A stretch of 39,327 nucleotides of DNA from a phage (GCA_033696785.1 GCA_033696785.1_4550.1), one strand, 5' to 3'. Counted from the first letter of the stretch, positions 199 through 32,724 are shown. A program made the numbers and translations. The notes: a model not told the origin generated them from the letters alone.

Positions 199-1218
199 TG
201 CGCCAGCTGCTTCAGGACGCAGACCACCGTGACCCATAGCGTACTTACCAACAATCAGGTCGCCCTGAGCATCGACGTCACGGTCACGTTCCAGCGCCAA
301 GTCACGCAGTTTAACGGTACCCACAGCAGAACGGTGAGAGAACAGGCCCACAACGTTGTCAAGAGCAACTTTAACATCACCACCAGCGGTAGCTGGGAAG
401 GCGTGCTTCTGACCAGTCGCAATAGTGATACCATCAGCACCACGAGTTTCACCAGCACCGCCCTGAGTCAGGTGTGGAACTTCAACAACCACAAAGCCCA
501 TTACGTTACGGATGTTACCAGTTTCAGGATCAATTAGCGCAGCGTAGTTAGCAGCGTTAGGCATCAGAGCCGCCAGAATAGCGGAGTAGTTGTCCGGAGT
601 GGTGTAGAAGTAACGGTCGCCAGCAGGCACGTAGTTTGAAGTCAGCTTAGCACGTGCGATAGTCAGTTGACCGATGATTGCTTCACCCAGCTTAGCGGGA
701 GTGTCTAGGTCAGCTTTCTTACCAACTTCCAGTACGGAGGCAGTGCCTAGACCAGCAATGTTCTCGTTGGATGCAGCCGGAAGGTTGCACAGGATAGCCG
801 TTTCAGCTAATACCGCACCATCGGCAGCGATAGCCAGAGCTTCACCTAGCTGGTTGGAATACTCGCCAGCCACGTCATAGTGGTTCATAGCGTCTTCAAT
901 ATCGAAAATCATCACATCGGCAGTCAGCAGACCATCAATGGTAATCACTTTCTCGGTATGTTTGATGCCTTTGCGCTTATCGGACAGTCGCTCACCTGGA
1001 GCAAGATACACACCAGAGGTGCGACCCATTACCGGGAACTGAGCAGACTTACCGTTCTGAATGGTACGGACAATATGCTTGTCAGCCGTTACAGAGCGGC
1101 GAGTGAATGCGGTCAGGACTTCACCAGCAAAGACCTTCAGGAACAACGCCAGAGCGTCGGAACTAGATTTGCCTTTACCTTGGTCTGTACCAATTTTCTG
1201 ACCCGGAACGTTTGCCAT
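175..1218 (-). CDS. Major capsid protein (T7 gp10A homolog)
   Basis: 347 aa colinear with T7 10A (FLKVF..GEVLTAF, KVITIDGLLTADV, NVMGF.VVEVPHLT, KYAMGHGGLRPEAAG). Promoter at 1321-1343. Confidence 0.96.
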   Translation of the reverse strand: MANVPGQKIGTDQGKGKSSSDALALFLKVFAGEVLTAFTRRSVTADKHIVRTIQNGKSAQFPVMGRTSGVYLAPGERLSDKRKGIKHTEKVITIDGLLTADVMIFDIEDAMNHYDVAGEYSNQLGEALAIAADGAVLAETAILCNLPAASNENIAGLGTASVLEVGKKADLDTPAKLGEAIIGQLTIARAKLTSNYVPAGDRYFYTTPDNYSAILAALMPNAANYAALIDPETGNIRNVMGFVVVEVPHLTQGGAGETRGADGITIATGQKHAFPATAGGDVKVALDNVVGLFSHRSAVGTVKLRDLALERDRDVDAQGDLIVGKYAMGHGGLRPEAAGALVFSPAA

Positions 1219-1320
1219 ATGATAATTCTCCTATTCAATTGAAAGATAAAGTTTATTACTTACTGTACGCCCAATCCGTATGGACTGAAGTAATAGGGAA
1301 ACCTTGAGTCTGTCTCTTGG

Positions 1321-1343
1321 TCTCCCTATAGTGATAGTTTAGT
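1321..1343 (-). promoter_or_regulatory. Phage RNAP promoter (phi10 equivalent)
   Basis: Plus strand tctccctatagtgatagtttagt, i.e. minus strand ACTAAACTATCACTATA-GGGAGA (-17 to +6). Confidence 0.85.
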
Positions 1344-1344
1344 C

Positions 1345-2229
1345 CTACAGGCTAGATGCAGCTACCTTAGCGCGAACTTCCATCGTGTACTTAGCGTCAC
1401 GCAGGTATCGCGGGTCACTCATAGCCTTAATCATGTCAGCCTTGGAGCTGAATGCTTCGGTCTTAGGAGCCTTAGGGGCTACCACAGGTTTAGCCTGAGT
1501 GGTGATGGTACGCTGAGGTTTAACGCCCACAGCTTTACCCAGAGTCTTGCCAGCCAGATTCAACAGAGCTTTGGTAGTCGCAATGTCCTTACGAACGATA
1601 GCAGCTTCCAGTGCTTCACGAGTTGACGGGTCGGTTGACTCAAGGTGGGACAGGATGCGATTAAACTGTTCAGCTCCACCAGCGTAGCGAACCACACCAG
1701 CAGCATACTGTTCAGCCAGAGCTTCCTGACCACGGACAAACGAATCTACGAAACGCTTGGTGTAACCTGCTTCCTGTAACTTAGCGTAGGATGCGTCAGA
1801 CAGCTTACCGTCCTTGGCGTATTCAGCCTTGATAGCGGTAATTTCATCAGCAGTGACCTTGCCAGCTTCTACAGCAGAAGACACCATGTCGTCAAATGCA
1901 GCTTCGTTTTCATCCAGAGCGGTGACACTTTCGGTCAGCTCTCTAGGTGCATCACCCAGTTCGACGAACTCATGTTGTTCATCATCGGTCTCAGACTCTT
2001 CGTCATCTGACTCGTGGTCTTCACCACCCTCAGTCTCTTCGACGTTTTCGTCTTCTTCGGAAGCCTCTTCGTTTTCGTCTTCCAGTTGCTTGAAGGTAAT
2101 AGCGTCGTCGCCATCACGAACAGCTACGTCCTGTTCAAGCATAGACTTTTGGTGTTCGTTCAGGTCCTCAACGGAACCAGTGATTGCATTAGAGCTAACG
2201 CCGAACTCGGCATAAACTGATTGAGACAT
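1345..2229 (-). CDS. Capsid assembly (scaffolding) protein (T7 gp9 homolog)
   Basis: 294 aa, very acidic, with T7 gp9-like N terminus (VYAEFGV) and C terminus (KAMSDPRYLRDAKY). Confidence 0.92.
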   Translation of the reverse strand: MSQSVYAEFGVSSNAITGSVEDLNEHQKSMLEQDVAVRDGDDAITFKQLEDENEEASEEDENVEETEGGEDHESDDEESETDDEQHEFVELGDAPRELTESVTALDENEAAFDDMVSSAVEAGKVTADEITAIKAEYAKDGKLSDASYAKLQEAGYTKRFVDSFVRGQEALAEQYAAGVVRYAGGAEQFNRILSHLESTDPSTREALEAAIVRKDIATTKALLNLAGKTLGKAVGVKPQRTITTQAKPVVAPKAPKTEAFSSKADMIKAMSDPRYLRDAKYTMEVRAKVAASSL

Positions 2230-6674: not shown

Positions 6675-8824
6675 GTTGGTCCAATCTTACCTTCGGTATC
6701 AAGGACACATTTAAAGTTATAGAACTCACCCACCTTACGCATAGCAAGTTGAGCAATCTTGACGACTTCTTCGGCAATCTCCTGAGTACGACACGCAATC
6801 TGTAGCTCATCGTGAACCCAAGCCATGTACGCGAAGTCTCCTTCCCAGCCGTGGACATACCCGGCCTCTTCAAGCATACGTTCAGTCTCGACAATCCAGT
6901 GCTTACAGACAACCGCACCATCACCTTGAAGCAGAGCGTTAAGTGCTGAGTGTGGCGACCGGATGTGAATTCGCCGACCATCCAGACCTTTCAGCCAGCG
7001 ACGTTTCCACTTCACGATGTTTTCACCATCTACCCACTTCGACTCTGAGATGAGCGTGTTCTGCACAGCCTCTCGCAGGTCCTTGATCGCTGGTGTACCC
7101 TCAATGAATTTCTTCATCAGGGCTGCACCTTCCTTCTTACCACCACCAACTATCAGTCCAATCTTCGCGGCCCCTGCACCATACAGGAACGCATAGATGA
7201 ACGTCTTGGCGTTATTACGGAAAGCATCGTGGTCATGGCTCGACTTGTCGCGTGGGACGTTAGGTGCTAACCCAGCGTTGACTGCGTTGGCCCAGTGGAT
7301 GTCACCTTCGACCACAGTCTTCGCATAGTCGCCACCATCAAACGGAGCCGCTCGGTTCCCCAGACAACGAAGCTCAAGACCTGAAGCATCCACGCCTACT
7401 TGAATCCAAGGGTCTGGCTTACCGTCCTTCTTGTTCCACGCTGCACCGAAAGCACCACGGCAAGTCTCACCATACGGAGCACCGTTAGCCGGGACCTGAG
7501 CCATGTTTGGTGAACTATGGGTAGCACGTCCGGTTACTGCACCACATGGGTTGATTGAACCATGCATACGTCCGTCTGGACCTACAAGCTTCAACCATGC
7601 GTTCTTACCTTCAGCAGCCTGCCCGATGCGCTTCTGGACCACCAGATACTCACGGACCAGCTCTACGCAAGCCTGAGCCTCTGCGTCTGGTAACTTAACG
7701 TGTTCTAACGTCTCGTCATCAACTACAGGTTTCCCAGTGTCAGTGAAGTCCACAGGCTCCCAACCGCGCTCCATCAAGACTTTCGCTAAGTGGTCTCCGC
7801 TTCCCGGATTAAACTCAACGTAAGTGATTGGCGTGAATGGTGCTCCATCCATCGTGTCTCGCGTATCGCGTTCACAAGGTTCAAGACCTAAGCGTTGAGC
7901 TTTGTTCTTAGGTTTCTTAAAGATTCCACCGACCTTAGGATACACGACTCTCGGATACTTCGGAAGGTCCTTACCTGTCCGTGGATGCCTGAAAAACTCC
8001 TTGCCCCCCTTTGGTGCATACCAGCTACCAAAAGTAGAGCGCAGCTTGTCTAGTAACTCCGCACGTTTGACAGTGAGTTCACGATATAAGCCTTCGACCA
8101 TCTCGGTGTTCATCGGATAGCCGTTACGTTCCATCTTCGCACAGGTCCACGCAGCATCATGTTCCAGACGCAACGCATAAATCTGTTCGAAAGCGAACTG
8201 TTCAGACTGGAAGTAATACTTGTCAGTCAGGAACTTCTTGAACAACGCCAGTGTGACCACAACGTCCTGAACGTTATAGTCCAGCATCTCCTGAGACGGG
8301 AACAACCATTCGTCCCCAGACTTATATTCGATACCTTCGGCCTTGCACTTGGCAACGTAATCGTGTTTGTACTCACCCTTCATCTCACCGAGACGATAGC
8401 CCCAAGCCTCAAGAGACTGACGTCCCATCAGCTTAGGCGGCAGACGACCGGCTTTCACCGCGCCCATGTCTGAGAACTTAATGTTGGGATACATCAAGCG
8501 GCCCAGAACCAAGGTATCAATCATCTTGTGTTTCGGGAAGTTAAAGCGTTTCCCAAAGTACAGACGTTTCAGCTTGTCAATAGCCGGGACGTCGTAGTTG
8601 ATACCGTTATGGAAGACCAGCATACCCGTAGGCGTTGCAGCAATTTCTTCCACCTTCTGTACATACTCTTTGAAGCCACCGACGATACCGACCATCGGCG
8701 CTACACCATACTTAAGGGTCTCATTCGACTCGGCATTAATCAGGACCCCACAATGGAACTGGGACACGGTGTCAAGGAGACCGTTGGTCTCGATGTCGGA
8801 GCCATAAACGTTACTTAAATCCAT
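6656..8824 (-). CDS. DNA polymerase, family A (T7 gp5 homolog)
   Basis: 722 aa with an N-terminal 3'-5' exonuclease region (MDLSNVYGSDIETNGLL) and polymerase motifs (DASGLELR, FIYAFLYGAG). Confidence 0.97.
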   Translation of the reverse strand: MDLSNVYGSDIETNGLLDTVSQFHCGVLINAESNETLKYGVAPMVGIVGGFKEYVQKVEEIAATPTGMLVFHNGINYDVPAIDKLKRLYFGKRFNFPKHKMIDTLVLGRLMYPNIKFSDMGAVKAGRLPPKLMGRQSLEAWGYRLGEMKGEYKHDYVAKCKAEGIEYKSGDEWLFPSQEMLDYNVQDVVVTLALFKKFLTDKYYFQSEQFAFEQIYALRLEHDAAWTCAKMERNGYPMNTEMVEGLYRELTVKRAELLDKLRSTFGSWYAPKGGKEFFRHPRTGKDLPKYPRVVYPKVGGIFKKPKNKAQRLGLEPCERDTRDTMDGAPFTPITYVEFNPGSGDHLAKVLMERGWEPVDFTDTGKPVVDDETLEHVKLPDAEAQACVELVREYLVVQKRIGQAAEGKNAWLKLVGPDGRMHGSINPCGAVTGRATHSSPNMAQVPANGAPYGETCRGAFGAAWNKKDGKPDPWIQVGVDASGLELRCLGNRAAPFDGGDYAKTVVEGDIHWANAVNAGLAPNVPRDKSSHDHDAFRNNAKTFIYAFLYGAGAAKIGLIVGGGKKEGAALMKKFIEGTPAIKDLREAVQNTLISESKWVDGENIVKWKRRWLKGLDGRRIHIRSPHSALNALLQGDGAVVCKHWIVETERMLEEAGYVHGWEGDFAYMAWVHDELQIACRTQEIAEEVVKIAQLAMRKVGEFYNFKCVLDTEGKIGPTWKECH

Positions 8825-9216
8825 GTAGCACCTCCAATCGCTCGGGCTATTGTCCTATGCCCTACGCCGTATTTCTCTCCCAGAGAGCGGTGAGTCCATC
8901 CACCAGAAGCGTACAATCTCTTAGCCTCGGCTACAATTTCAGGTGTCAACTTGGCGCATCCCACTTTTACACCCTTTGCTGTACGTCCACGGACATCCCG
9001 GTCCTTAACGTTATCAGCTCGTGTCCCAAGCTCTAGGTGATCAGGGTTATAACATGACGGGTTGTCACACTTATGACGGACAACCAGTCCCTTTGGTATT
9101 GGACCATTAGCTTCCTCATACGCTATGAGATGTAGCCTACGGACTTTCCCATTGACCCTACGCATGCCATAGCCGAACTTATCTCGGCACCCGGTCCACT
9201 CAATACAGTCAATCAT
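8815..9216 (-). CDS. HNH homing endonuclease (paralog 1)
   Basis: 133 aa with CIEW..GYG and LVVRHKCDNPSCYNPDHLELGT core, between the primase/helicase and polymerase genes. Confidence 0.88.
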   Translation of the reverse strand: MIDCIEWTGCRDKFGYGMRRVNGKVRRLHLIAYEEANGPIPKGLVVRHKCDNPSCYNPDHLELGTRADNVKDRDVRGRTAKGVKVGCAKLTPEIVAEAKRLYASGGWTHRSLGEKYGVGHRTIARAIGGATWI

Positions 9217-9292: not shown

Positions 9293-9452
9293 AGTCTGTA
9301 CGCAAGAAGTGATACATGAACTTCCGGTTAGCTTTCTTCCATGCCTCAGAGTTGAACCGCTGGTCTCCCAGAATGTTGGACAGGCAGGTTGCTTCATCGC
9401 TCCACCATTTGTACATGAACCTGTGGTAGCTGGCTTTAAGTTTCTTTAACAC
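9288..9452 (-). CDS. Small hypothetical protein (GTG start)
   Basis: About 54 aa hand-translated (VLKKLKASYHRFMYKWW...) with GGAGGA RBS, between the primase and HNH genes. Not in the ORF track. Confidence 0.3.
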   Translation of the reverse strand: MLKKLKASYHRFMYKWWSDEATCLSNILGDQRFNSEAWKKANRKFMYHFLRTDY

Positions 9453-9494
9453 TAACGGTCCTCCGTAAAATTCTTATAGTCAGCGATGTCCCGA

Positions 9495-11198
<1,704 letters not shown>

Positions 11199-11249
11199 TC
11201 ACTCCTTAATCACAAATGCGAACAGAGGGACAGGACTCACGGTCCCATC

Positions 11250-11267
11250 CCAAGGTGATAGTTTAGG
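11250..11267 (-). promoter_or_regulatory. Degenerate phage promoter-like element
   Basis: Plus strand ccaaggtgatagtttagg keeps -17 to -6 of the consensus but replaces the -5 to -1 TATAG block. Confidence 0.35.
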
Positions 11268-11478
11268 CTTTGAAGAACTGAGACAACTGGTCGGCTTTGG
11301 TGTCAGCCTGACGTGCCTTCATGCCAGCTTCCAGTGACGCGATGGTCAGCTTGTCAGCCAGAGCAGCAGCATCAGCCGCACCGTCAGCAGTCTTCTCTGC
11401 TACCTTTCGTTCCATAACCGCAGCACGACGATAACCACGCACCACCAGACGACCAAGAAATTCGATAAGTTTAATCAT
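11263..11478 (-). CDS. Hypothetical protein
   Basis: 71 aa, hydrophobic N terminus then Ala/Lys-rich helix, between the lysozyme and primase genes. No motif recognised. Confidence 0.5.
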   Translation of the reverse strand: MIKLIEFLGRLVVRGYRRAAVMERKVAEKTADGAADAAALADKLTIASLEAGMKARQADTKADQLSQFFKA

Positions 11479-11501
11479 TTAGTGTTCTCCTTTGTAGTTT
11501 A

Positions 11502-11969
11502 TTAACCGTGGTCGGAAGTGACCAGTTCATTGGTAGACAGCCAGCGTTGCAAGTCGAAACTTGGACACGCCTTTGGTGCTACGTCATGGTGTGCTTTTAT
11601 TTCTGCCTGAGGATACAGGACCTTCAGGTCAGCCAGCTTGTTGCGCAGGGAGTTCATCTGGGCTGGAGTGAAGCTAGCTTCAAACTTGCCCTTAGCGTCG
11701 ATTCCACCTACAAGGCAGACGCCTACGGACCGGGAGTTCCAATCCTTAACGTGTGACCCTACGACATTGACCGGGCGACCCTCTTCCACAGTACCATCGC
11801 GCTTGATGATAAAGTGGTAGCCTACGTCCAGCCAGCCTTGCTGCTTGTGCCACATACGGATGGTCTCTACCCCGATGTCCATCTCTGGCTTGGTAGCCGA
11901 ACAGTGAACGAAGATAGCGTCAGTCCGGGACCGTGGGTTGAACTGTACCTTACTTACCATTATTTCCAC
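11502..11969 (-). CDS. N-acetylmuramoyl-L-alanine amidase / lysozyme (T7 gp3.5 homolog)
   Basis: 155 aa with IFVHCSATKP, QGWLDVGYHFIIKRDGTVEEGR and HHDVAPKACPSFD, near-identical to T7 lysozyme. Confidence 0.95.
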   Translation of the reverse strand: MEIMVSKVQFNPRSRTDAIFVHCSATKPEMDIGVETIRMWHKQQGWLDVGYHFIIKRDGTVEEGRPVNVVGSHVKDWNSRSVGVCLVGGIDAKGKFEASFTPAQMNSLRNKLADLKVLYPQAEIKAHHDVAPKACPSFDLQRWLSTNELVTSDHG

Positions 11970-12329
11970 CTCTTGTGGTTCCTGATTCGGCTTATGGTCG
12001 CCTCACTCACTGAGTATTTTGCAGCCATAAACTTAAGGGTCTCGCTTGAGGTGCGAATCTCCTTAACGTCCTCTTCAGTTAGTTTTGAATTAAATGTCCT
12101 GCGCACTGAGCAGTCCATCATGTTTTCCGCTTGAGTCCCAAGCTCAAGGTGCTTGATGTTTACGCACGAGCGGTTATCACACTTGTGTCTTACGACAAGA
12201 CCTTCTGGTATGACACCATTGCCTCTAGCCAAGCGGCTCTATGAGCACCCATAGATTGACCACGGAATTTACGTCTTCCGTAGCCGCCCTTGTTGAGACT
12301 CTTAGTCCATTCTATGCAATCACTTTCCA
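11960..12329 (-). pseudogene. HNH endonuclease (paralog 4) disrupted by a 1-nt frameshift
   Basis: N-terminal 46 codons (MESDCIEWTKSLNKGGYGRRKFRGQSMGAHRAAWLEA) are in one frame; the C-terminal part (GNGVIPEGLVVRHKCDNRSC...) is the track ORF 11960..12232 in another, starting at TTG just after an in-frame TAG. Confidence 0.65.
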
Positions 12330-12778
12330 TTGTAAACAACGAGTTCTACGACCACTAGATTCAGGTGCTGGGTGAAGCGTTGTGCGTCCGTGGTGTGCAT
12401 CTGGAGGCGCTTATGGTTGAAGACGTGTGAGTTGCTGATCTTCACGTAAACTTCTTCAGGCTTTCCGTGGACGATGAACGTCTGGCCTACACCAATCTTG
12501 TCGATGGTCAGGACTTCACGCTTCACGGTCACAGGCGGTACGCTCGAAGCTGGTAGGACTTGAGGCTGGTCAACAACTTCTACACTGTATGTCTCGTGGC
12601 CATTCCAGCCGAAAGTCTCACCGATGTAATCCTCAGGATGCCACCCCTTCTCCACAATTACGCTATGGTCTTCTCGCTTTTCGAAAACAGCATCAGTGAA
12701 TCTGGGGTTATTCAGCAGGGTGTTCTTTGAGAATCTGTAACGTGTTCCAACTTCAAGGTCTTTACAGGTAGTCATCAC
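12320..12778 (-). CDS. Hypothetical protein, 152 aa, no T7 counterpart at this position
   Basis: Sits between the endonuclease I and lysozyme genes, which are adjacent in T7. No motif recognised. Confidence 0.7.
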   Translation of the reverse strand: MMTTCKDLEVGTRYRFSKNTLLNNPRFTDAVFEKREDHSVIVEKGWHPEDYIGETFGWNGHETYSVEVVDQPQVLPASSVPPVTVKREVLTIDKIGVGQTFIVHGKPEEVYVKISNSHVFNHKRLQMHTTDAQRFTQHLNLVVVELVVYNGK

Positions 12779-13224
12779 TTAACTCCTTTCTTCTTTGGGA
12801 TGAGTATACCTGAAGGCAGACGTACAGTCGCCTCTCGAAGCCACTCAACCGGGATAAACTTATCGGCATACTTATAGCCGTTCTTTTCGCACCATGCGCC
12901 ATACGTGGTCGGAGACCCTTTGTATAGCTTGGAGCGGGAACTTGAGAACACGAACCGTATGTCTAACTCTGGGTGCTGTTCTCGTACCAGAAGGTGCTTC
13001 TTACGGTCATCACTATCGAAGATACCTTTGGTCTCAACGATGATACCGTTAGGAAGGATAAAGTCGGGCGTGTAAAAATGATCGCTAGCAGGTACTACAT
13101 ACATAATTTTATATGCCTCATACTCAGCCCGTACCCCGTTCTTCTCCAGCCACTCTTGGTTCTTTGCTTCAAGCCCAGAGCGATACGCTCCCACTTTATG
13201 TCCTCGACTAATTGTTCTTGTCAC
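12775..13224 (-). CDS. Endonuclease I, Holliday-junction resolvase (T7 gp3 homolog)
   Basis: 149 aa with YTPDFILPNGIIVETKG and DRKKHLLVREQHPELDIRFVFSS. Confidence 0.95.
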   Translation of the reverse strand: MTRTISRGHKVGAYRSGLEAKNQEWLEKNGVRAEYEAYKIMYVVPASDHFYTPDFILPNGIIVETKGIFDSDDRKKHLLVREQHPELDIRFVFSSSRSKLYKGSPTTYGAWCEKNGYKYADKFIPVEWLREATVRLPSGILIPKKKGVK

Positions 13225-13657
13225 GCTTACGCCTCCAGTTAATAGCCTGTGGAGTAACTCCGAACATCTTAGCTAGCTCACTATTGGGCCGCGAGGACTT
13301 CAGGATGAACTCTACGTCTTCCTCGGTCAGCTTAGTCTTATTGTTAGCTTCTCCTATGAACACTGGAGGTTTCGACTTTCGCCCCCTCTCCATGCAGTCC
13401 CTCATGTTGTCCTTCTGCGTACCTAGTTCAAGGTGCTCAGGGTTACAGCAGCAGGGGTTGTCGCATTTATGTCTAACCAACATTCCATCAGGAATAGGAC
13501 CTATGAACTCCATGTATGACACACGATGTGCATAGTCCTGTTTCTGTCTTCCTATTGATATTCGACCGTATCCAGTAGGGAACCGGGAGCGTTGCCACTC
13601 CCAGCACCCGGAGGGAGAAACCTCAGAGTAATCCTCCAGTTTCTCTTTTAGATTCAT
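13208..13657 (-). CDS. HNH homing endonuclease (paralog 2)
   Basis: 149 aa with GCWEW..GYG and LVRHKCDNPCCCNPEHLELGT, plus C-terminal KLTEEDV helix. Confidence 0.88.
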   Translation of the reverse strand: MNLKEKLEDYSEVSPSGCWEWQRSRFPTGYGRISIGRQKQDYAHRVSYMEFIGPIPDGMLVRHKCDNPCCCNPEHLELGTQKDNMRDCMERGRKSKPPVFIGEANNKTKLTEEDVEFILKSSRPNSELAKMFGVTPQAINWRRKRDKNN

Positions 13658-14355
13658 TAGAAGTCGTAATCGCCACCAGAGTTGGAGTCGTCACCACCTT
13701 CGGAACCATCGTCACCAAAGTCATCAGACCCGAAGTCACCATCGGTTGACGCTTTGTAGCCGGTACCGAGGTCTTCATCATCGCCCCAGCCACCATCTCC
13801 ACCAGCACCATCACCTTTCCACTCCTTCAGTTCTACCAGAAGGCAGGACTCAAGCTGGAGCTTAACGCTTGCACCAGTCGCAGCGTTCCACTTGAACGGC
13901 AGGACTTTAAACTTGACCTTCAGCTTTGAGCCAGCGCCAATATTCGGGACGTCACGGATTAACTTAGCATCGGTGTCGTAGAACCGTAATACGATAGGCT
14001 CTGACTTACCATCCTTCAGGTAAGACGCGAAGCATTTAAACTTCAGGGTAACAGTACCGTCACCATTCTCAATCCAAGGCATGTCGCCTTCTCGTGGTTC
14101 AATAGGCTTCTTGCCACGCTGAACCTGAGGTGGGTTCTTCTCGTGGTCTGCGAGTGCTTTCGCATACGCATCGTCGTGAATCTTCTGTAAGACATCAATC
14201 ATCTTACGGACCTTCGGGTTGCTCAGGTCGAATGTCAGGTTAACCTTATGCTCACCACGCTCGTTAAACTTGGTGTCTGCTTTGTTCAGCCATGCGTAAG
14301 GCTCAACGATGCCAGCTACCGGAGTGGTGAAAGTCTTCAGTTGCTCTTTAGCCAT
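13657..14355 (-). CDS. Single-stranded DNA-binding protein (T7 gp2.5 homolog)
   Basis: 232 aa with GASVKLQLESCLLVEL and an acidic C-terminal tail ending DYDF (T7 ends DGDF). Confidence 0.95.
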   Translation of the reverse strand: MAKEQLKTFTTPVAGIVEPYAWLNKADTKFNERGEHKVNLTFDLSNPKVRKMIDVLQKIHDDAYAKALADHEKNPPQVQRGKKPIEPREGDMPWIENGDGTVTLKFKCFASYLKDGKSEPIVLRFYDTDAKLIRDVPNIGAGSKLKVKFKVLPFKWNAATGASVKLQLESCLLVELKEWKGDGAGGDGGWGDDEDLGTGYKASTDGDFGSDDFGDDGSEGGDDSNSGGDYDF

Positions 14356-14395
14356 TGGTGTAAATCTCCTAATTTAAAAGTTACGAACTGGACGT

Positions 14396-14418
14396 CTGTC
14401 CTACAGTGATAGTTTAGG
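14396..14418 (-). promoter_or_regulatory. Phage RNAP promoter (phi2.5 equivalent), CTGTAGG variant
   Basis: Plus strand tgtcctacagtgatagtttagg, overlapping the gp2 stop and upstream of the SSB gene. Confidence 0.75.
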
Positions 14419-14572
14419 TCTCAGGACGAATCCGTCCGACCACAAACCCAGCGTCCTCATACTCTTGTGACTTCAGGGTAGCCTCTTCAAGAGACTTTGC
14501 GTACAACGGAACCTCGAAGGACTGAACGCGACCCTCAAGCTCCACGATGTATTTCTTCTCAACCTCAGTCAT
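14414..14572 (-). CDS. Host RNA polymerase inhibitor (T7 gp2 homolog)
   Basis: 52 aa hand-translated: [52 protein letters not shown], with T7 gp2-like HSFEVP..AGFEV..R.RP. Not in the ORF track. Confidence 0.75.
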
Positions 14573-14688
14573 AGAATCTCCTTGTCGAGAATCTCTTCCA
14601 GCTTAACAAGTTCCTCTTCGGATAAATCAGTGAAGTCCACGAACTCCTTAATAAGCTGACACACAAAGTTAATCTGGTCTTGGTTCAT
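14569..14688 (-). CDS. Small hypothetical protein (39 aa)
   Basis: Hand-translated [39 protein letters not shown]; its stop overlaps the gp2 start (ATGA). Confidence 0.4.
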
Positions 14689-14766
14689 AAACCGCGCTCC
14701 TTCCATTGGTTGTATAACGTAATGTAGTCCGGGTTGAGAGTCTTCTCATACATCTCCCGGCACCAC

Positions 14767-15102
14767 TCACTCGGCAGCATAGCACTTACCTTTATGCAGG
14801 TCGAACAGCTCCTGATAGAAGGCTGCTTTGTTCAGGTCCTTCTCCATAGTCGCCAGCTCTGACTTCTTACCAGCCCGGAGTCGATACTTCAGGACGTTCC
14901 CCATGCAGAACCCACGGAACTCACTCACAGTCATTGACCGTGCGATAATCTCAATGGATTCCACGCCGTCAAAGACCTGATAGTGGGACGGCTTGCGGAC
15001 AGCGTCATCTTTAATATACTCGGCGTGGACTCCAAGAACAGCACCGCAGTCGCACGGACCTGAGCTGAGGACTGATCGGCACAACTCATGGTGCTTAGTC
15101 AT
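14767..15102 (-). CDS. Hypothetical protein, possibly DUF3310-like
   Basis: 111 aa with PSHY, GFCMGNVLKYRLRAGKK; family name is from memory and unverified. Confidence 0.55.
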   Translation of the reverse strand: MTKHHELCRSVLSSGPCDCGAVLGVHAEYIKDDAVRKPSHYQVFDGVESIEIIARSMTVSEFRGFCMGNVLKYRLRAGKKSELATMEKDLNKAAFYQELFDLHKGKCYAAE

Positions 15103-15355
15103 TGATCACCTCCTTCATGAATTCAACGAACAGACGAACTCGGGGCCACTTAGTGTATACCACAGGCACATTGGTCTCACGCTTCTGGCTAGCCTCTTCA
15201 GCTTTACCCGGAGTAATCAGAGCGAAGACTGTAGGTGACAGCTTAACGGCCTTCCCGAAGTAGCCCAGCTTCTCGTTGCACTTAATGCAAGCGAACGGGT
15301 TGTTGGACAGGTGGAATGTATTGGAATAACGGTTGAACATTAAGTTCTTAAACAT
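15095..15355 (-). CDS. Hypothetical protein
   Basis: 86 aa, cysteine pair (C..C), directly after promoter 15384-15406. Confidence 0.55.
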   Translation of the reverse strand: MFKNLMFNRYSNTFHLSNNPFACIKCNEKLGYFGKAVKLSPTVFALITPGKAEEASQKRETNVPVVYTKWPRVRLFVEFMKEVIND

Positions 15356-15383
15356 GGTCGGCCTCCTTAGGTCGAAGTTATTG

Positions 15384-15406
15384 TTGTCCTACAGTGATAG
15401 TTTAGG
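15384..15406 (-). promoter_or_regulatory. Phage RNAP promoter, CTGTAGG variant
   Basis: Plus strand gtcctacagtgatagtttaggg. Confidence 0.75.
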
Positions 15407-15442
15407 GTCAGGCTGGTGGCCCAGACGGTAGCTTGCTAGCAT

Positions 15443-15477
15443 AAGCAAAGAAACCCAGCAGTCCGAAGACCACTGGG
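15443..15477 (-). terminator. Intrinsic terminator after the ligase gene (TE-like early terminator)
   Basis: Minus-strand RNA CCCAGUGGUC-UUCG-GACUGCUGGG (10-bp stem, UUCG tetraloop) followed by UUUCUUUGCUU; same position as T7 TE. Confidence 0.7.
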
Positions 15478-15488
15478 TTGACGTTTAG

Positions 15489-16547
15489 TTAGCTCTTAAC
15501 GGTTGGATTGTCCTCAGTCCCTCGCCAGCACTTGAAGCTTGGATGGCGAAGGGAACCATCAGGGAACCGCTCCATGAAGAGGACTTCACACTGCCAGCCT
15601 TCGTATGGATTGATTCCACCGAGAATATATGTATCAGTGTTACAGGCTTCCGTAAACTCGTCCTTCTGTTCCTCAGTCAGACCGCAAGCATTAACCACCA
15701 TGCCATCCTCAAGCAGCACCTCAAAGCCAATCACCTTACCTTCGTTAGCCTTACCCGGAGTCCCCCACACGAGGCCACACACGGTCCCGTCGATGGTCTC
15801 CTCAGGCTTCATCTTCCACATGCCTGACTTCTTGCCACGCTTGTATTTACCAAGCGGGTCCTTGACTACCAGACCCTCGTGTCCTTCCAGACGCTTCTGT
15901 TCGTACAGGGAGTTGAGCGACTCAAGGTCATAGACCGTGTTTGACTCAGACAGAACCCAGTCGATTTCCGGGAAGTATTTCTGGAGGAGAGGGACGATAG
16001 CTTCGGCCTTCAGGCGGGTGACGCTATGGATTGGACCTTCGGCTTTCGGGTCAGCAATGGTTGTCATGTCGATAACACCGTAAACCACAACCTGAAGTCG
16101 TGACCGGGCGACCCAGAACGGGACCTTCTTGCCACGGCCAGGATAGCATTCAGCGAACTCCTCGTTGTTAGGCTTGAGCCACTTCGTTCGGATGAGACCT
16201 GAAGACGTATTGAAGTCAACGCCTTTGACCATGACCTCGCCATCAATCATTAGGCCGATACCTTCATAGCCAGCTTGACGAAGGAACCACCGCCAGTCAG
16301 CCTGAGTCCACGCATTGCCTAACTCAGAGTTCATCCATTCAAGTGCTGGCAGCGGTTTAGACTCACGGCTTAACCAGTAGGTCTCACCCTCTCGCAGCAC
16401 CGGAAGATTCAACCGGACACCATCATACTTCACTTCAGCTTCCAGCGACCCGGCAGCTTCCAGAGCCTTCTTAACGCCAGACTCAGAGTAATCTACAGCG
16501 CGGTGTGGGTTAGTTTTAATAGTCGTAGTCATTATGGTTTTCTCCAT
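15489..16547 (-). CDS. ATP-dependent DNA ligase (T7 gp1.3 homolog)
   Basis: 352 aa with the adenylation motif EVKYDGVRL. Confidence 0.95.
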   Translation of the reverse strand: MEKTIMTTTIKTNPHRAVDYSESGVKKALEAAGSLEAEVKYDGVRLNLPVLREGETYWLSRESKPLPALEWMNSELGNAWTQADWRWFLRQAGYEGIGLMIDGEVMVKGVDFNTSSGLIRTKWLKPNNEEFAECYPGRGKKVPFWVARSRLQVVVYGVIDMTTIADPKAEGPIHSVTRLKAEAIVPLLQKYFPEIDWVLSESNTVYDLESLNSLYEQKRLEGHEGLVVKDPLGKYKRGKKSGMWKMKPEETIDGTVCGLVWGTPGKANEGKVIGFEVLLEDGMVVNACGLTEEQKDEFTEACNTDTYILGGINPYEGWQCEVLFMERFPDGSLRHPSFKCWRGTEDNPTVKS

Positions 16548-31400: not shown

Positions 31401-32293
31401 GCCTTCTCTTGGTCCAACTTCTGGTTCTCAAGCGCCAAGTTAATCAGCTCTGTCAGATTCTGAGGAGAACCGCCAGTAATGACTCCGTAATACTGAGGCA
31501 GAACCCCAGCGTTACGAATCTGGTCCAGCTCCTCACGAGACCACTTATGGTTGTTCCATCGGGTTGGGTTGAACACATCGCCAATGACATCCAGTGAGTC
31601 CTCAGTCTGACCAGCTCGTATAGCCACGCCGACCATAGAGTTCTTCACTTCAGCTTCTGTAGCCGCACCGAAACCGAACCACGTAGAGCGGTCCTCTCGT
31701 TCCTGCATGGTCTCTCCAGTAGCCTTATAGAACATCTCACCGAACGATTCGTTGGGAGCTTCAGGTGCTTGACCCTCAATGTTCAGACCAGCAGCGGTCG
31801 GAAGGTTCTCACCCAGAGCCACTTTAGGTTTAGCCTTGAGTCCTTCCGTGAGTGCGTCAAATACGGTAGCGCTTACTGGTGGAGTCTTTGGGCTGATACC
31901 GTTGAGTGCTCTTGCTACCCCCTGTTGGTAGACTTCAGGGTCGTACCGGGAGCCTGTCTCGTGGTAGCCTATAGCCTCAGACAGAGAGGCGAGGACGTCA
32001 GGGTTCGTCAGGTCGAGACTTTGTGTTGCTGGAATGCCGGTCGCAGCCACAACAGAGTTGATGTAGGACTGAGTGTCATTCTCATTAGGCGGCGCCCAGC
32101 GGTTGATAATCTTCTCGATGGAGTCATAACCTTGGCGACCGTAGCTTTGAAGGTTTTTAGCTAAAGCTCGTACCCCAGATTCAGGACTATCGAATATAAC
32201 GAATGCACCATCATCCCCTACTGCACCTTCCCATTGGTCTTTGGACTTACGGATATTTCCCGGATTTGAATTTCTTACTCCACGTGTTGCCAT
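28406..32293 (-). CDS. Internal virion protein D (T7 gp16 homolog) with a divergent N-terminal domain
   Basis: 1295 aa; body colinear with T7 gp16 (SPTGMQSGASGK, KGTYVPHVY, NNSFLEARNLFDSD, AYNRRVNGDIAIM). The first ~130 aa (NSNPGNIRKS...WEG) lack the T7 transglycosylase motif I recall. Confidence 0.93.
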   Translation of the reverse strand: MATRGVRNSNPGNIRKSKDQWEGAVGDDGAFVIFDSPESGVRALAKNLQSYGRQGYDSIEKIINRWAPPNENDTQSYINSVVAATGIPATQSLDLTNPDVLASLSEAIGYHETGSRYDPEVYQQGVARALNGISPKTPPVSATVFDALTEGLKAKPKVALGENLPTAAGLNIEGQAPEAPNESFGEMFYKATGETMQEREDRSTWFGFGAATEAEVKNSMVGVAIRAGQTEDSLDVIGDVFNPTRWNNHKWSREELDQIRNAGVLPQYYGVITGGSPQNLTELINLALENQKLDQEKAKAGTGAQLAAGVIGAGVDPLTYVPIAGQVGKGGKLINKMFTVAAQSGALAGASEIARTSVAGGDAHVAEAIIGGALFGGGMTAIADGLGRALGRNTNEFAGPAIRLEARETARNVDGQDLSRMPIREGEETFSHQGVKFADVPNEPGSVRLEDGSILIGENPLNPKTRQVFDEVIEPERAAAGVNLGGLTEIGLKLLRSENPEIRGVAADLVRSPTGMQSGASGKIGTTASDVFERLRAVDHRFYNDIDNAVTEALKDPYFQTAFWRDSGAFRQDIYQRVSMAIEDGSGNLKAELTPGELKVYDLLKNQFDAKREMMENPAMFGRPDAQSIFPGSHFKGTYVPHVYSKQMKELYIKELGSPEALQEAIKKSWLTSYASRPEVKKRVDEALLEADPTLTPEGLAAAVDKYANDKAYGISHTEQFERSSVMEENINGLVGLENNSFLEARNLFDSDMSIVLPNGQTFSVNNLREWDMDKIVPAYNRRVNGDIAIMAGTGKTTKDMKDLVETMMNKAGDDGKLKGEVSTLRDTLKILTGRARRDGADDAAFATVMRTMTDLSFFAKNAYMGVQNLTEIGGMLARGNVRALLHGVPMFRDLAFRNKKVGASEIKDLHNVLFGKELDDSIRPSKQDVIDRLRSYSDLGRGTATALGTAKYYTGELAVRSPFTKLLNGTTNYLLDAGRQGFLSDIVEHSLTGSKRKFDDRWLKTAGISDEQWKGIKSLIRESVTRGPDGKYTIKDKKSFSQDPRAMDLWRMGDTIADETLLRPHKLSNMDAKAYGPLAKTVLQFKNFVIKSINGRTMRTFYNATKNNRAMDAALSTVMSMGLAGIYYMAQAHVKAYAMQDGRDREYLKQALDPTMIGYAALSRSSHLGGPLGVANILGGIAGYEDTKMLRSSILPRSPTEKPERAIPYGAAKSDPVMNVVGNFLEQVPAFGYAANVGASAYNLAGYLKADTRVNERDYMTGMYNTFRELVPNDPITQKLLLGTFEEQGIHIKD

Positions 32294-32724
32294 GTCTTTC
32301 TCCTCAAGATATTTCTAATAGAAACCGTACTCACTCCATATCGTTCCGCTAAGAGTGAAACCTTTAGGCCGCTGGACCTTATGTCTCTCACGATTTCTTC
32401 AGTGAGCTTAGATACTCCTATGGAGCATCCTGACGCTTGGCGACCTCTAGTCACCTTATCCTTTATGTTGTCAGCTTGGGTGCCGACTTCAAGGTGGCTT
32501 GGGTTTATACAGGACGGGTTGTCGCATTTATGACGAACAACGTATCCATCGGGTATAGGACCATTAGCAAGCTCGTAGGCAAGTCTATGTGCTCCATATT
32601 TCACCCTATTAATCATTATCCTTCCATAGCCGGATTTATCAATGCTTCCGGTGAATCGGATACAGCCAGACTCTTCGGCTACTGACAGTTCTGCCAGTCT
32701 CTCACTGGCTGTCCCGTTCTTCAT
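32275..32724 (-). CDS. HNH homing endonuclease (paralog 3) in the structural module
   Basis: 149 aa with GCIRF..GYG and YVVRHKCDNPSCINPSHLEVGT, between the gp15 and gp16 genes. Confidence 0.88.
   Translation of the reverse strand: MKNGTASERLAELSVAEESGCIRFTGSIDKSGYGRIMINRVKYGAHRLAYELANGPIPDGYVVRHKCDNPSCINPSHLEVGTQADNIKDKVTRGRQASGCSIGVSKLTEEIVRDIRSSGLKVSLLAERYGVSTVSIRNILRRKTWQHVE

What the first reader, a model, noticed from the sequence alone, without database searches (positions are those of the whole stretch)
11960..12778. Orphan 152-aa gene plus a decayed HNH endonuclease inserted between endonuclease I and lysozyme
In T7 genes 3 and 3.5 are adjacent. Here about 820 bp is inserted, holding a 152-aa ORF with no recognisable motifs (12320..12778) and an HNH endonuclease split by a frameshift (11960..12329). 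A homing-endonuclease remnant beside an unrelated cargo gene is typical of mobile-element hitchhiking. The cargo could be an anti-defence or host-takeover function.
Basis: inference. Interest (0 to 1): 0.65.

Follow-up and report, generated by a model that had tools for sequence, protein, structure and literature searches.

The report
Conserved gp3.2 gene plus broken homing endonuclease
The extra DNA between the endonuclease I and lysozyme genes of this K1F-like phage is two unrelated things: gp3.2, a gene of unknown function that nearly all relatives carry at this spot, and a rare selfish HNH homing-endonuclease gene recently disabled by a one-base deletion, so the pair is not a mobile element carrying cargo.

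Summary
The window is a Kayfunavirus (phage K1F group) read on the minus strand. About 814 bp separate gene 3 (endonuclease I) from gene 3.5 (amidase), holding a 151/152-aa ORF and an HNH gene split by a frameshift.

The ORF is not an orphan. It is gp3.2. It occurs in 221 phage records, always between genes 3 and 3.5, including relatives only 47-62% identical. It has a strong ribosome-binding site, core-like codon usage and strong purifying selection on its C-terminal half.

The HNH gene (T7 gp2.8-like, HNH_3 plus a helix-turn-helix tail) is a separate, sporadic insertion at the gp3.2/gp3.5 junction. I found it in only 3 other phages, against 219 uninterrupted junctions. Flanking co-conversion is short, about 24 nt. 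A 1-nt deletion cuts its catalytic motif. The same deletion appears in assemblies from at least three separate accessions, so it is real and probably recent.

The one mildly new point is the architecture of gp3.2. A constant basic C-terminal core stands alone (74-75 aa) in some phages. It carries an exchangeable N-terminal cassette with at least four unrelated classes. The window's cassette is predicted to be an SH3-like barrel. The function of gp3.2 is unknown.

The parts
14400..14426 (-). Phage RNA-polymerase promoter-like repeat (reverse complement of CCTACAGTGATAGTTTAGG). It is the nearest one upstream of genes 2.5 to 3.7.
   Evidence: Repeat families D2 and D5 have copies across the window. 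The next copy downstream is at 11242-11267 and none lies between, so gp2.5, HNH, gp3, gp3.2, the broken HNH, gp3.5 and gp3.7 would be co-transcribed. This is inferred from the repeats.
13208..13657 (-). Intact 149-aa HNH_3 endonuclease between genes 2.5 and 3, a T7 gp2.8 homologue. It is context for the finding, not part of it.
   Evidence: Pfam HNH_3, E 1.1e-16. 41% identical to T7 gp2.8, which sits at the same position. Present in phage TM1 and absent from K1F and Pipis.
12775..13224 (-). Gene 3, endonuclease I (Holliday-junction resolvase).
   Evidence: Pfam Phage_endo_I, E 1.6e-75.
12783..12787 (-). Shine-Dalgarno sequence AGGAG of gp3.2, 7 nt upstream of the ATG at 12775. The gene 3 stop codon overlaps that ATG (TGATG).
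   Evidence: Read directly from the sequence. Homologues start with MTTCKDL.
12569..12775 (-). gp3.2 N-terminal cassette, 'TCKDL' class (residues 1-69, pI 5.0), predicted to be an SH3-like beta-barrel.
12320..12568 (-). gp3.2 proline-rich linker plus the constant C-terminal core (residues 70-151, pI 9.5).
   Evidence: 91-100% identical across relatives with unrelated N-termini. dN/dS 0.03-0.11. phrog_16385 E 3e-51 and phrog_15211 E 5e-40. It stands alone as a 74-75-aa protein in Dev2/SH4-type phages (PMC4925675; P0127). The structure model is of low confidence.
12320..12343 (-). Left co-conversion tract. The last 24 nt of gp3.2 carry six synonymous changes of the HNH-donor type.
   Evidence: The window equals phage Pipis from -88 to -25, then differs at -24, -22, -19, -16, -7 and -2, where it largely follows PH1061/SD6.
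11960..12330 (-). Free-standing HNH_3 homing-endonuclease gene with a C-terminal helix-turn-helix, inactivated (pseudogene).
   Evidence: 90% identical in DNA to the intact 123-aa genes of PH1061 and SD6. Pfam HNH_3 matches only profile positions 12-46, on the downstream fragment. CAI-like value 0.59, against 0.65-0.74 for core genes.
12221..12222 (-). Site of the 1-nt deletion (frameshift) inside the beta-beta-alpha-metal motif, between the 'AHR' histidine and 'RHKCDN'.
   Evidence: Alignments A1 and A4. The upstream frame ends at 12190 after 46 codons. There is no slippery heptamer at the site (read from the sequence).
11966..11972 (-). Shine-Dalgarno sequence GAGGTGG within the last codons of the HNH gene. 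It re-supplies translation initiation for the displaced amidase gene; the HNH stop overlaps the amidase ATG (TAATG, ATG at 11960).
   Evidence: Read directly from the sequence. At empty sites the amidase ATG lies inside the end of gp3.2, and the HNH gene now uses that ATG.
11502..11960 (-). Gene 3.5, N-acetylmuramoyl-L-alanine amidase (lysozyme), 152 aa starting MVSKVQFN.
   Evidence: Pfam Amidase_2. Its first 190 nt are identical to the HNH-free phage Pipis.

Best explanation
Two independent features lie side by side.

(1) gp3.2 (12320..12775, minus strand) is a resident middle-class gene of Kayfunavirus phages. It is transcribed with the DNA-metabolism genes and translationally coupled to gene 3. 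Its protein has a constant, basic, beta-rich C-terminal core of about 75 aa, which is the ancestral and autonomous unit. An optional N-terminal module is attached and is exchanged among phages like a cassette. The window's module is predicted to be an acidic SH3-like barrel. My inference, held at low confidence, is that the core docks onto a conserved partner (a nucleic acid, or a conserved phage or host protein) and the cassette adds or tunes binding to a variable partner. That would make gp3.2 a non-essential accessory or host-interaction protein.

(2) A free-standing HNH_3 homing-endonuclease gene of the T7 gp2.8 type entered the gp3.2/gp3.5 junction by homing from a PH1061/SD6-like donor. 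Inferred steps: the enzyme cleaves the endonuclease-free allele, and recombinational repair copies the gene together with about 24 nt of the left flank. The insertion took over the start codon that served the amidase and supplies a new Shine-Dalgarno sequence and ATG for it. In this lineage a 1-nt deletion then split the catalytic motif, leaving a recent pseudogene. This fits the usual cycle of invasion, inactivation and loss for such genes.

Shown: the distribution, synteny, selection, frameshift and co-conversion tract. Inferred: cleavage activity and specificity, and any function of gp3.2.

The confidence given (0.85) is for the two-part anatomy. The adaptor role proposed for gp3.2 deserves only about 0.2-0.3.
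For: gp3.2 is resident:
- tblastn finds it in 221 phage records, and 219 records have an uninterrupted gp3.2/gp3.5 junction.
- K1F annotates it as gp3.2.
- Relatives only 47-62% identical keep the order endonuclease I, gp3.2, amidase, with the same 11-nt overlap.
- Its CAI-like value is 0.70, against 0.65-0.74 for core genes. The Shine-Dalgarno AGGAG and the TGATG coupling are visible in the sequence.
- dN/dS of the C-domain is 0.03-0.11.

Cassette architecture:
- The sampled family members fall into four main N-terminal classes, rare singleton forms and one form with no N-domain. Tandem forms also exist (P0118, P0124).
- Profile-profile comparison finds no similarity between classes (hhalign probability below 6%).
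- Against PH1061 and SD6, dS is 0.06-0.09 in the N-domain and 0.57-0.65 in the C-domain, which points to recent horizontal spread of the cassette.

The HNH gene is a separate mobile gene:
- It occurs in only PH1061, SD6 and ZH4 besides the window.
- It occurs with different gp3.2 classes.
- Insertion boundaries are precise and flanked by the AATGGNAAGTNA motif. The co-conversion tract is described.
- Its codon adaptation is low.
- It is 42% identical to the gp2.8-like HNH gene in the same window.

The frameshift is real and recent:
- The same deletion is present in independent assemblies.
- It is the only lesion, and dN/dS is 0.15.
- ZH4 carries a different, independent frameshift.
Against: - No biochemical or genetic data exist for gp3.2; the only paper found that mentions it lists it in a genome table.
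- The C-domain structure model is poor (pLDDT 40-60), so its fold and binding role are guesses.
- Neither the cleavage site nor the activity of the HNH enzyme was tested.
- All assemblies that show the deletion are the same phage genotype, 100% identical. They confirm the base call but say nothing about selection since the frameshift.
- The N-terminal mosaicism could be a passive by-product of recombination near two homing sites rather than an adaptation.
Confidence: 0.85

Rival explanations
1. One reading: the roughly 820 bp is one mobile unit in which a homing endonuclease carried the 152-aa gene in as cargo, possibly an anti-defence gene.
For: The two genes are adjacent and overlap by 11 nt. 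Both are absent from T7. gp3.2 has no recognisable family.
Against: 219 genomes have gp3.2 without the HNH gene, against 3 with it. Distant relatives keep gp3.2 in synteny without the HNH gene. The HNH gene pairs with different gp3.2 classes. Co-conversion reaches only about 24 nt into gp3.2. gp3.2 has core-like codon usage and the HNH gene does not.
Confidence: 0.03
2. The frameshift is a sequencing or assembly artefact, and the phage actually encodes an active 123-aa HNH endonuclease.
For: It is the only lesion. The repaired ORF is fully open and has dN/dS 0.15 against PH1061. ZH4's lesion lies in a run of G, a typical error context.
Against: The same deletion appears in contigs from GCA_013181095.1, GCA_033696685.1 and SRR24462312. 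The site is not a homopolymer run; it is a lost C from a CC pair next to an A-to-G change.
Confidence: 0.08
3. The split HNH gene is still used. Either a programmed frameshift restores the full enzyme, or the 90-aa downstream fragment (partial HNH plus helix-turn-helix) is made as a domesticated DNA-binding protein.
For: The downstream frame has stayed open for 87 codons, and a gene caller predicts a 90-aa product from a TTG start. The helix-turn-helix tail is intact.
Against: There is no X XXY YYZ slippery site at the shift, and no Shine-Dalgarno sequence or ATG for the fragment (sequence). The catalytic histidine is on the other fragment. The open frame is equally well explained by a recent lesion.
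Confidence: 0.05
4. gp3.2 is a counter-defence or host-takeover adaptor whose exchangeable N-terminal cassette determines which variable host factor or immune protein it engages. This is compatible with the best explanation and is its strongest version.
For: A constant core with at least four unrelated, recently exchanged N-terminal cassettes and tandem stacking. Raised dN/dS in the cassette. The family is restricted to one genus. Apparent loss in phage ZG49 suggests gp3.2 is dispensable.
Against: There is no similarity to any characterised protein. Cassette classes show no obvious link to host genus in the records listed. Mosaicism may simply reflect recombination driven by the flanking homing endonucleases.
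Confidence: 0.2

Closest known systems
Phage K1F gp3.2 (CAJ29361.1) / PHROG families phrog_16385 and phrog_15211. Kayfunavirus hypothetical protein between genes 3 and 3.5.
   Same: Same position, same 11-nt overlap with gene 3.5, and a C-terminal core 94-96% identical.
   Different: The N-terminal 70 residues are unrelated (15% identity; 'GWP' class in K1F, 'TCKDL' class here). Dev2/SH4-type phages have only the 74-75-aa core.
Intact HNH endonucleases of Escherichia phages PH1061 (WKV16791.1) and SD6 (XNY80034.1).
   Same: Same insertion site, 90% DNA identity, same length (372 nt) and the same HNH_3 plus helix-turn-helix architecture.
   Different: The window copy has a 1-nt deletion that truncates the first frame after 46 codons. 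The window's amidase flank is of the endonuclease-free type, whereas in PH1061 and SD6 the first 36 nt of the amidase gene are also diverged.
T7 gp2.8, an HNH_3 protein annotated simply as 'endonuclease', and free-standing phage homing endonucleases in general (for example T4 Seg/Mob and T3/phiYeO3-12 gp5.3; the latter group is cited from general knowledge).
   Same: A small HNH_3 catalytic domain followed by a helix-turn-helix tail; intergenic insertion between conserved genes; patchy distribution; flanking co-conversion. The window's other HNH gene at 13208..13657 is 41% identical to T7 gp2.8 and sits at the same site.
   Different: The insertion site differs (gp3.2/gp3.5 junction). The copy is inactivated, and no cleavage data exist for this lineage.
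SH3-like small beta-barrel domains (FeoA, the C-terminal domain of DtxR/IdeR, KapB, Tudor, KOW).
   Different: No sequence similarity (7-15% identity), sub-threshold Foldseek scores, and no shared functional residues identified. The resemblance is at fold level only.

Membership tests
HNH_3 / His-Me finger homing endonuclease (T7 gp2.8-like) | Sequence match to the HNH_3 profile above Pfam's gathering score | tested here: met
   46.2 bits against a cut-off of 24.8, E 3.5e-12, on the downstream fragment, but covering only profile positions 12-46. phrog_59 HNH endonuclease, E 3e-21.
HNH_3 / His-Me finger homing endonuclease (T7 gp2.8-like) | A single intact reading frame carrying the whole beta-beta-alpha-metal motif (first His, then Asn/His) | tested here: not met
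   A 1-nt deletion at 12221/12222 separates 'GAHRAAW' from 'VVRHKCDN...ENMMD'. The first frame stops at 12190. It is therefore a pseudogene of the family, not a functional member.
HNH_3 / His-Me finger homing endonuclease (T7 gp2.8-like) | Sporadic presence at a precise site between conserved genes in otherwise collinear relatives | tested here: met
   3 other occupied sites against 219 empty junctions. Identical insertion boundaries.
HNH_3 / His-Me finger homing endonuclease (T7 gp2.8-like) | Co-conversion of flanking sequence with the endonuclease gene | tested here: met
   The last 24 nt of gp3.2 switch from the Pipis type to the donor type (six synonymous changes). The right flank has no tract.
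HNH_3 / His-Me finger homing endonuclease (T7 gp2.8-like) | Site-specific cleavage of the endonuclease-free allele and super-Mendelian inheritance | not testable with these tools
   Needs an enzyme assay or mixed infections with the intact PH1061/SD6 gene.
Kayfunavirus gp3.2 (phrog_16385 / phrog_15211) | Match to the family profile over the C-terminal core | tested here: met
   phrog_16385 E 3.1e-51 (residues 68-152) and phrog_15211 E 4.9e-40 (residues 83-152). 94-100% identity of the core to K1F, TM1, Pipis and ZH4, and 91-95% to SD6 and PH1061.
Kayfunavirus gp3.2 (phrog_16385 / phrog_15211) | Location between gene 3 and gene 3.5 on the same strand | tested here: met
Composite 'homing endonuclease plus cargo' mobile unit | The cargo gene co-occurs with the endonuclease and is absent where the endonuclease is absent | tested here: not met
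   gp3.2 is present in 219 records without the HNH gene. Class A cassettes occur without it (TM1, Pipis), and the HNH gene occurs with class B (ZH4).
SH3-like beta-barrel fold (gp3.2 N-domain) | Significant structural match to SH3-like barrels | tested here: inconclusive
Known anti-defence proteins | Homology to a characterised anti-defence family, or an experimental counter-defence phenotype | not testable with these tools
   No anti-defence library was available. Pfam, NCBIfam, PHROGs, PADLOC, PDB and BFVD give no annotated relative.

The most novel reading that the evidence does not exclude
gp3.2 is a modular counter-defence or host-takeover adaptor. On this reading a constant basic core docks on a conserved target, and interchangeable (and stackable) N-terminal SH3-like cassettes retarget it to different variable host or immune proteins. 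The flanking homing endonucleases would drive exchange of the cassettes between co-infecting kayfunaviruses.
Probability: 0.15. Interest if true: 0.6.

Novelty: new member of a known kind. Interest (0 to 1): 0.22.

Why it matters
For the scan, this is mainly a correction. A seemingly exotic pair, an orphan cargo gene beside a homing-endonuclease remnant, turns out to be a genus-conserved annotated hypothetical gene next to an ordinary decaying selfish gene.

The case is a tidy natural example of the homing-endonuclease life cycle in T7-like phages. Intact copies (PH1061, SD6), two independently frameshifted copies (the window, ZH4) and possibly a deleted remnant (ZG49) all sit at one site. It also shows how such a gene preserves expression of its neighbour by bringing a replacement ribosome-binding site.

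The only lead worth following is gp3.2's constant core with swappable N-terminal cassettes. That pattern often marks proteins at a phage-host interface, and it could be tested cheaply in K1F.

Tried and rejected
- Family searches for gp3.2 in Pfam (single protein and 32 family members), NCBIfam and PADLOC gave nothing.
- A PDB sequence-profile search gave only a chance hit at E 0.046.
- An exhaustive HMMER search of 1.84 billion representatives found only 11 true relatives, all gp3.2 proteins. One spurious repeat protein, P0131, was rejected.
- Foldseek against PDB and BFVD found no significant match other than a family member from phage IMM-002. The afdb50 library was unavailable.
- A second AlphaFold run on the C-domain with the most diverse alignment available still gave pLDDT 59. 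I did not use it for fold search.
- I tested whether the N- and C-domains are an internal duplication, and whether the cassette classes are distant homologues. hhalign probabilities were all below 6%, so I rejected both at the sequence level.
- Literature searches for gp3.2 and for accessory-gene screens found no functional data.
- I considered a programmed frameshift and rejected it for lack of a slippery site.
- I considered an assembly error and rejected it because independent assemblies carry the identical deletion.

Full report
**Context.** The window is a T7-like phage of the genus Kayfunavirus (K1F group), with all genes on the minus strand. The 2.3 kb around the finding matches about 250 phage records at 80-95% identity, best to Escherichia phages TM1, SD6 and PH1061. 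In phage sense the local gene order is as follows:

| Gene | Coordinates |
|---|---|
| gp2.5 single-strand DNA-binding protein | 13657..14355 |
| Intact HNH endonuclease | 13208..13657 |
| gp3 endonuclease I | 12775..13224 |
| The 152-aa ORF | 12320..12778 |
| Split HNH gene | 11960..12330 |
| gp3.5 amidase | 11502..11960 |
| gp3.7-like | 11263..11478 |
| gp4 primase/helicase | 9495..11195 |

Phage-promoter repeats lie at 14400-14426 and 11242-11267, with none between. These genes therefore form one middle-class transcription unit.

**Check of the observation.** In T7, gene 3 and gene 3.5 abut. Here they are about 814 bp apart. The ORF exists as described. Its likely start is the ATG at 12775 (151 aa, MTTCKDL..., as in every homologue). 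An AGGAG Shine-Dalgarno sequence precedes it, and it overlaps the gene 3 stop codon (TGATG). It has no hit in Pfam, NCBIfam or PADLOC, and only a chance-level PDB sequence hit.

The HNH gene starts at the ATG at 12330 and is broken by a 1-nt deletion between 12222 and 12221, relative to the intact 123-aa genes of PH1061 and SD6. The first frame ends after 46 codons at 12190. The remaining 87 codons, which carry Pfam HNH_3 profile positions 12-46 and a helix-turn-helix tail, are in another frame. The break lies inside the catalytic beta-beta-alpha-metal motif. The site has no slippery sequence.

The same deletion is present in contigs from GCA_013181095.1, GCA_033696685.1 and SRR24462312, which are 100% identical to the window over up to 6.4 kb. 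It is therefore a real allele of a phage genotype seen repeatedly. It is also the only lesion. The repaired gene has dN/dS 0.15 against PH1061 (dS 0.33), so inactivation is recent.

**The 152-aa gene is not an orphan and not cargo.**
- tblastn finds it in 221 phage records from Escherichia, Salmonella, Enterobacter, Citrobacter, Shigella, Klebsiella, Cronobacter and other hosts.
- K1F annotates it as gp3.2, and it matches phrog_16385 and phrog_15211.
- A junction probe from the HNH-free phage Pipis finds 219 records with an uninterrupted gp3.2/gp3.5 junction. The HNH insert occurs in full in only PH1061, SD6 and ZH4.
- An exhaustive HMMER search of 1.84 billion representative proteins finds only 11 genuine relatives. 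The two most distant ones, at 47% and 62% identity, still sit between endonuclease I and the amidase with the same 11-nt overlap.
- Codon adaptation of gp3.2 (0.70) matches core genes (0.65-0.74). The four HNH genes of the window score 0.54-0.60.
- The HNH gene occurs with different gp3.2 variants: class B in ZH4, and class A in the window, PH1061 and SD6. Class A also occurs without the HNH gene, in TM1 and Pipis.

**The HNH gene as a homing element.** All four occupied sites share the same boundaries. At empty sites the amidase ATG lies inside the last codons of gp3.2 (..ACAATGGTAAGTAA). In occupied sites the HNH gene uses that ATG, and the HNH 3' end (..AAGAGGTGGAAATAATGG..) supplies a new Shine-Dalgarno sequence and ATG for the amidase. 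This leaves an AATGGNAAGTNA motif on both sides of the insert.

The window's gp3.2 is identical to Pipis from -88 to -25. It then carries six synonymous differences in its last 24 nt, where it largely follows the PH1061/SD6 type. On the other side, the first 190 nt of the window's amidase gene are identical to Pipis, whereas SD6 differs at 12 of its first 36 positions. This is the signature of acquisition by recombinational repair with a short co-conversion tract.

The protein belongs to the T7 gp2.8 type. It is 42% identical to the window's other HNH gene at 13208..13657, which is itself 41% identical to T7 gp2.8 and sits at the same site. It is only weakly similar to T7 gp3.8.

ZH4 carries an independent +1 frameshift. 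ZG49 retains only the last 113 nt of the gene, fused to gene 3. Together with the intact copies, these look like successive stages of the usual cycle of invasion, decay and loss. Cleavage activity itself was not testable here.

**What gp3.2 looks like.** Alignment of 130 family members shows an almost invariant C-terminal region and a highly variable N-terminal region.
- The constant part is a proline-rich linker plus a core of about 75 residues. It is 91-100% identical across the phages compared, has pI 9.5 and dN/dS 0.03-0.11.
- The N-terminal 60-75 residues fall into unrelated classes. Counts of 90%-identity clusters in the sample are: 'GWP', as in K1F, 64; 'TCKDL', as here, 31; 'KAIVV', 16; 'FPVTVTG', 11. 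There are also a few singleton forms.
- Some phages have no N-domain at all (74-75 aa, as in Dev2/SH4-type phages). Two tandem forms stack two cassettes (P0118, P0124).
- Profile-profile comparison finds no relationship between classes, or between any class and the core.
- Between the window and PH1061/SD6, dS is 0.06-0.09 in the cassette and 0.57-0.65 in the core. The cassette has therefore spread more recently than the core diverged.
- The core is modelled poorly, even with the most diverse alignment I could build. Its predicted pattern of strands and a short helix resembles another small barrel, but that is inference only.
- BFVD returns only a family member.
- I found no paper on its function.

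**Most likely mechanism.** With high confidence, the region is a resident accessory gene with an independent, recently inactivated homing-endonuclease gene inserted at its 3' junction. With low confidence, gp3.2 is a binding adaptor. Its basic core would be the functional anchor, since it is autonomous in some phages. The exchangeable N-terminal barrel would modulate or redirect it. That architecture is common in proteins at phage-host interfaces. An equally simple reading is that two homing sites flanking genes 3 and 3.2 create a recombination hot spot that shuffles a tolerant N-terminus. If the ZG49 assembly is correct, gp3.2 is dispensable.

**Verdict.** The sequence observation is confirmed, with corrected start codons. 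The interpretation of an orphan cargo gene hitch-hiking with a homing endonuclease is refuted for the cargo part and upheld for the endonuclease remnant. Both components belong to known kinds and are already annotated in relatives. Interest is low. The modest lead is the cassette architecture of gp3.2.

Noticed in passing
window 8815..9216(-), 11960..12330(-), 13208..13657(-), 32275..32724(-): The genome carries four paralogous HNH_3 endonuclease genes, detected as a 122-nt repeat family at 64-73% identity. One of them lies among the late genes. All have lower codon adaptation (0.54-0.60) than core genes.
   Followed up: partly
window 13208..13657 (-): The intact 149-aa HNH gene between gp2.5 and gp3 is a homologue of T7 gp2.8 (41% identity) at the same position. 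It is itself sporadic: present in TM1 and absent from K1F, Pipis, PH1061 and SD6. Its end overlaps the start of gene 3 by 17 nt.
   Followed up: partly
window 9320..15775 and loci L007-L010: Exactly this phage genotype (100% identity over up to 6.4 kb) recurs as contigs of about 39 kb in two NCBI genome assemblies (GCA_013181095.1, GCA_033696685.1) and two SRA runs (SRR24462312, SRR24462318). Ten contigs carry the identical gp3.2 protein. This could be a widely circulating phage or a laboratory contaminant.
   Followed up: no
L011 (Escherichia phage ZG49, KX669227.5) 600..2100: In ZG49, gene 3 is fused at its end to the last 113 nt of this HNH gene, and gp3.2 is missing. A chimeric ORF (amidase N-terminus plus gene 3 C-terminus) is duplicated, and the N-terminus of gene 3 carries 18 residues of the gp2.8-like HNH protein. 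This is either a heavily rearranged genome or a misassembly. If it is real, gp3.2 is dispensable.
   Followed up: partly
window 1325, 2331, 5152, 9268, 11242, 14400, 15388, 17056, 20134, 22825, 28392, 36107 (minus-strand promoters): There are about twelve copies of the phage RNA-polymerase promoter-like repeat (reverse complement of CCTATAGTGATAGTTTAGG). The copy at 11242-11267, upstream of gene 4, is the most divergent.
   Followed up: no
proteins P0118 (222 aa) and P0124 (226 aa), from metagenomic kayfunavirus contigs: These gp3.2 variants carry two different N-terminal cassettes in tandem ('FPVTVTG' or 'GWP', followed by a 'TCKDL'-like module) ahead of the constant core. P0044 looks like a 'GWP' cassette with an internal frameshift.
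   Followed up: partly
window 12775..13224 (gene 3) compared with neighbouring genes: Endonuclease I is less conserved between the window and close relatives (83-94% amino-acid identity) than gp2.5 (96-99%), and somewhat less than the amidase (83-98%). This fits a recombination-prone segment bounded by the two homing-endonuclease insertion sites.
   Followed up: no
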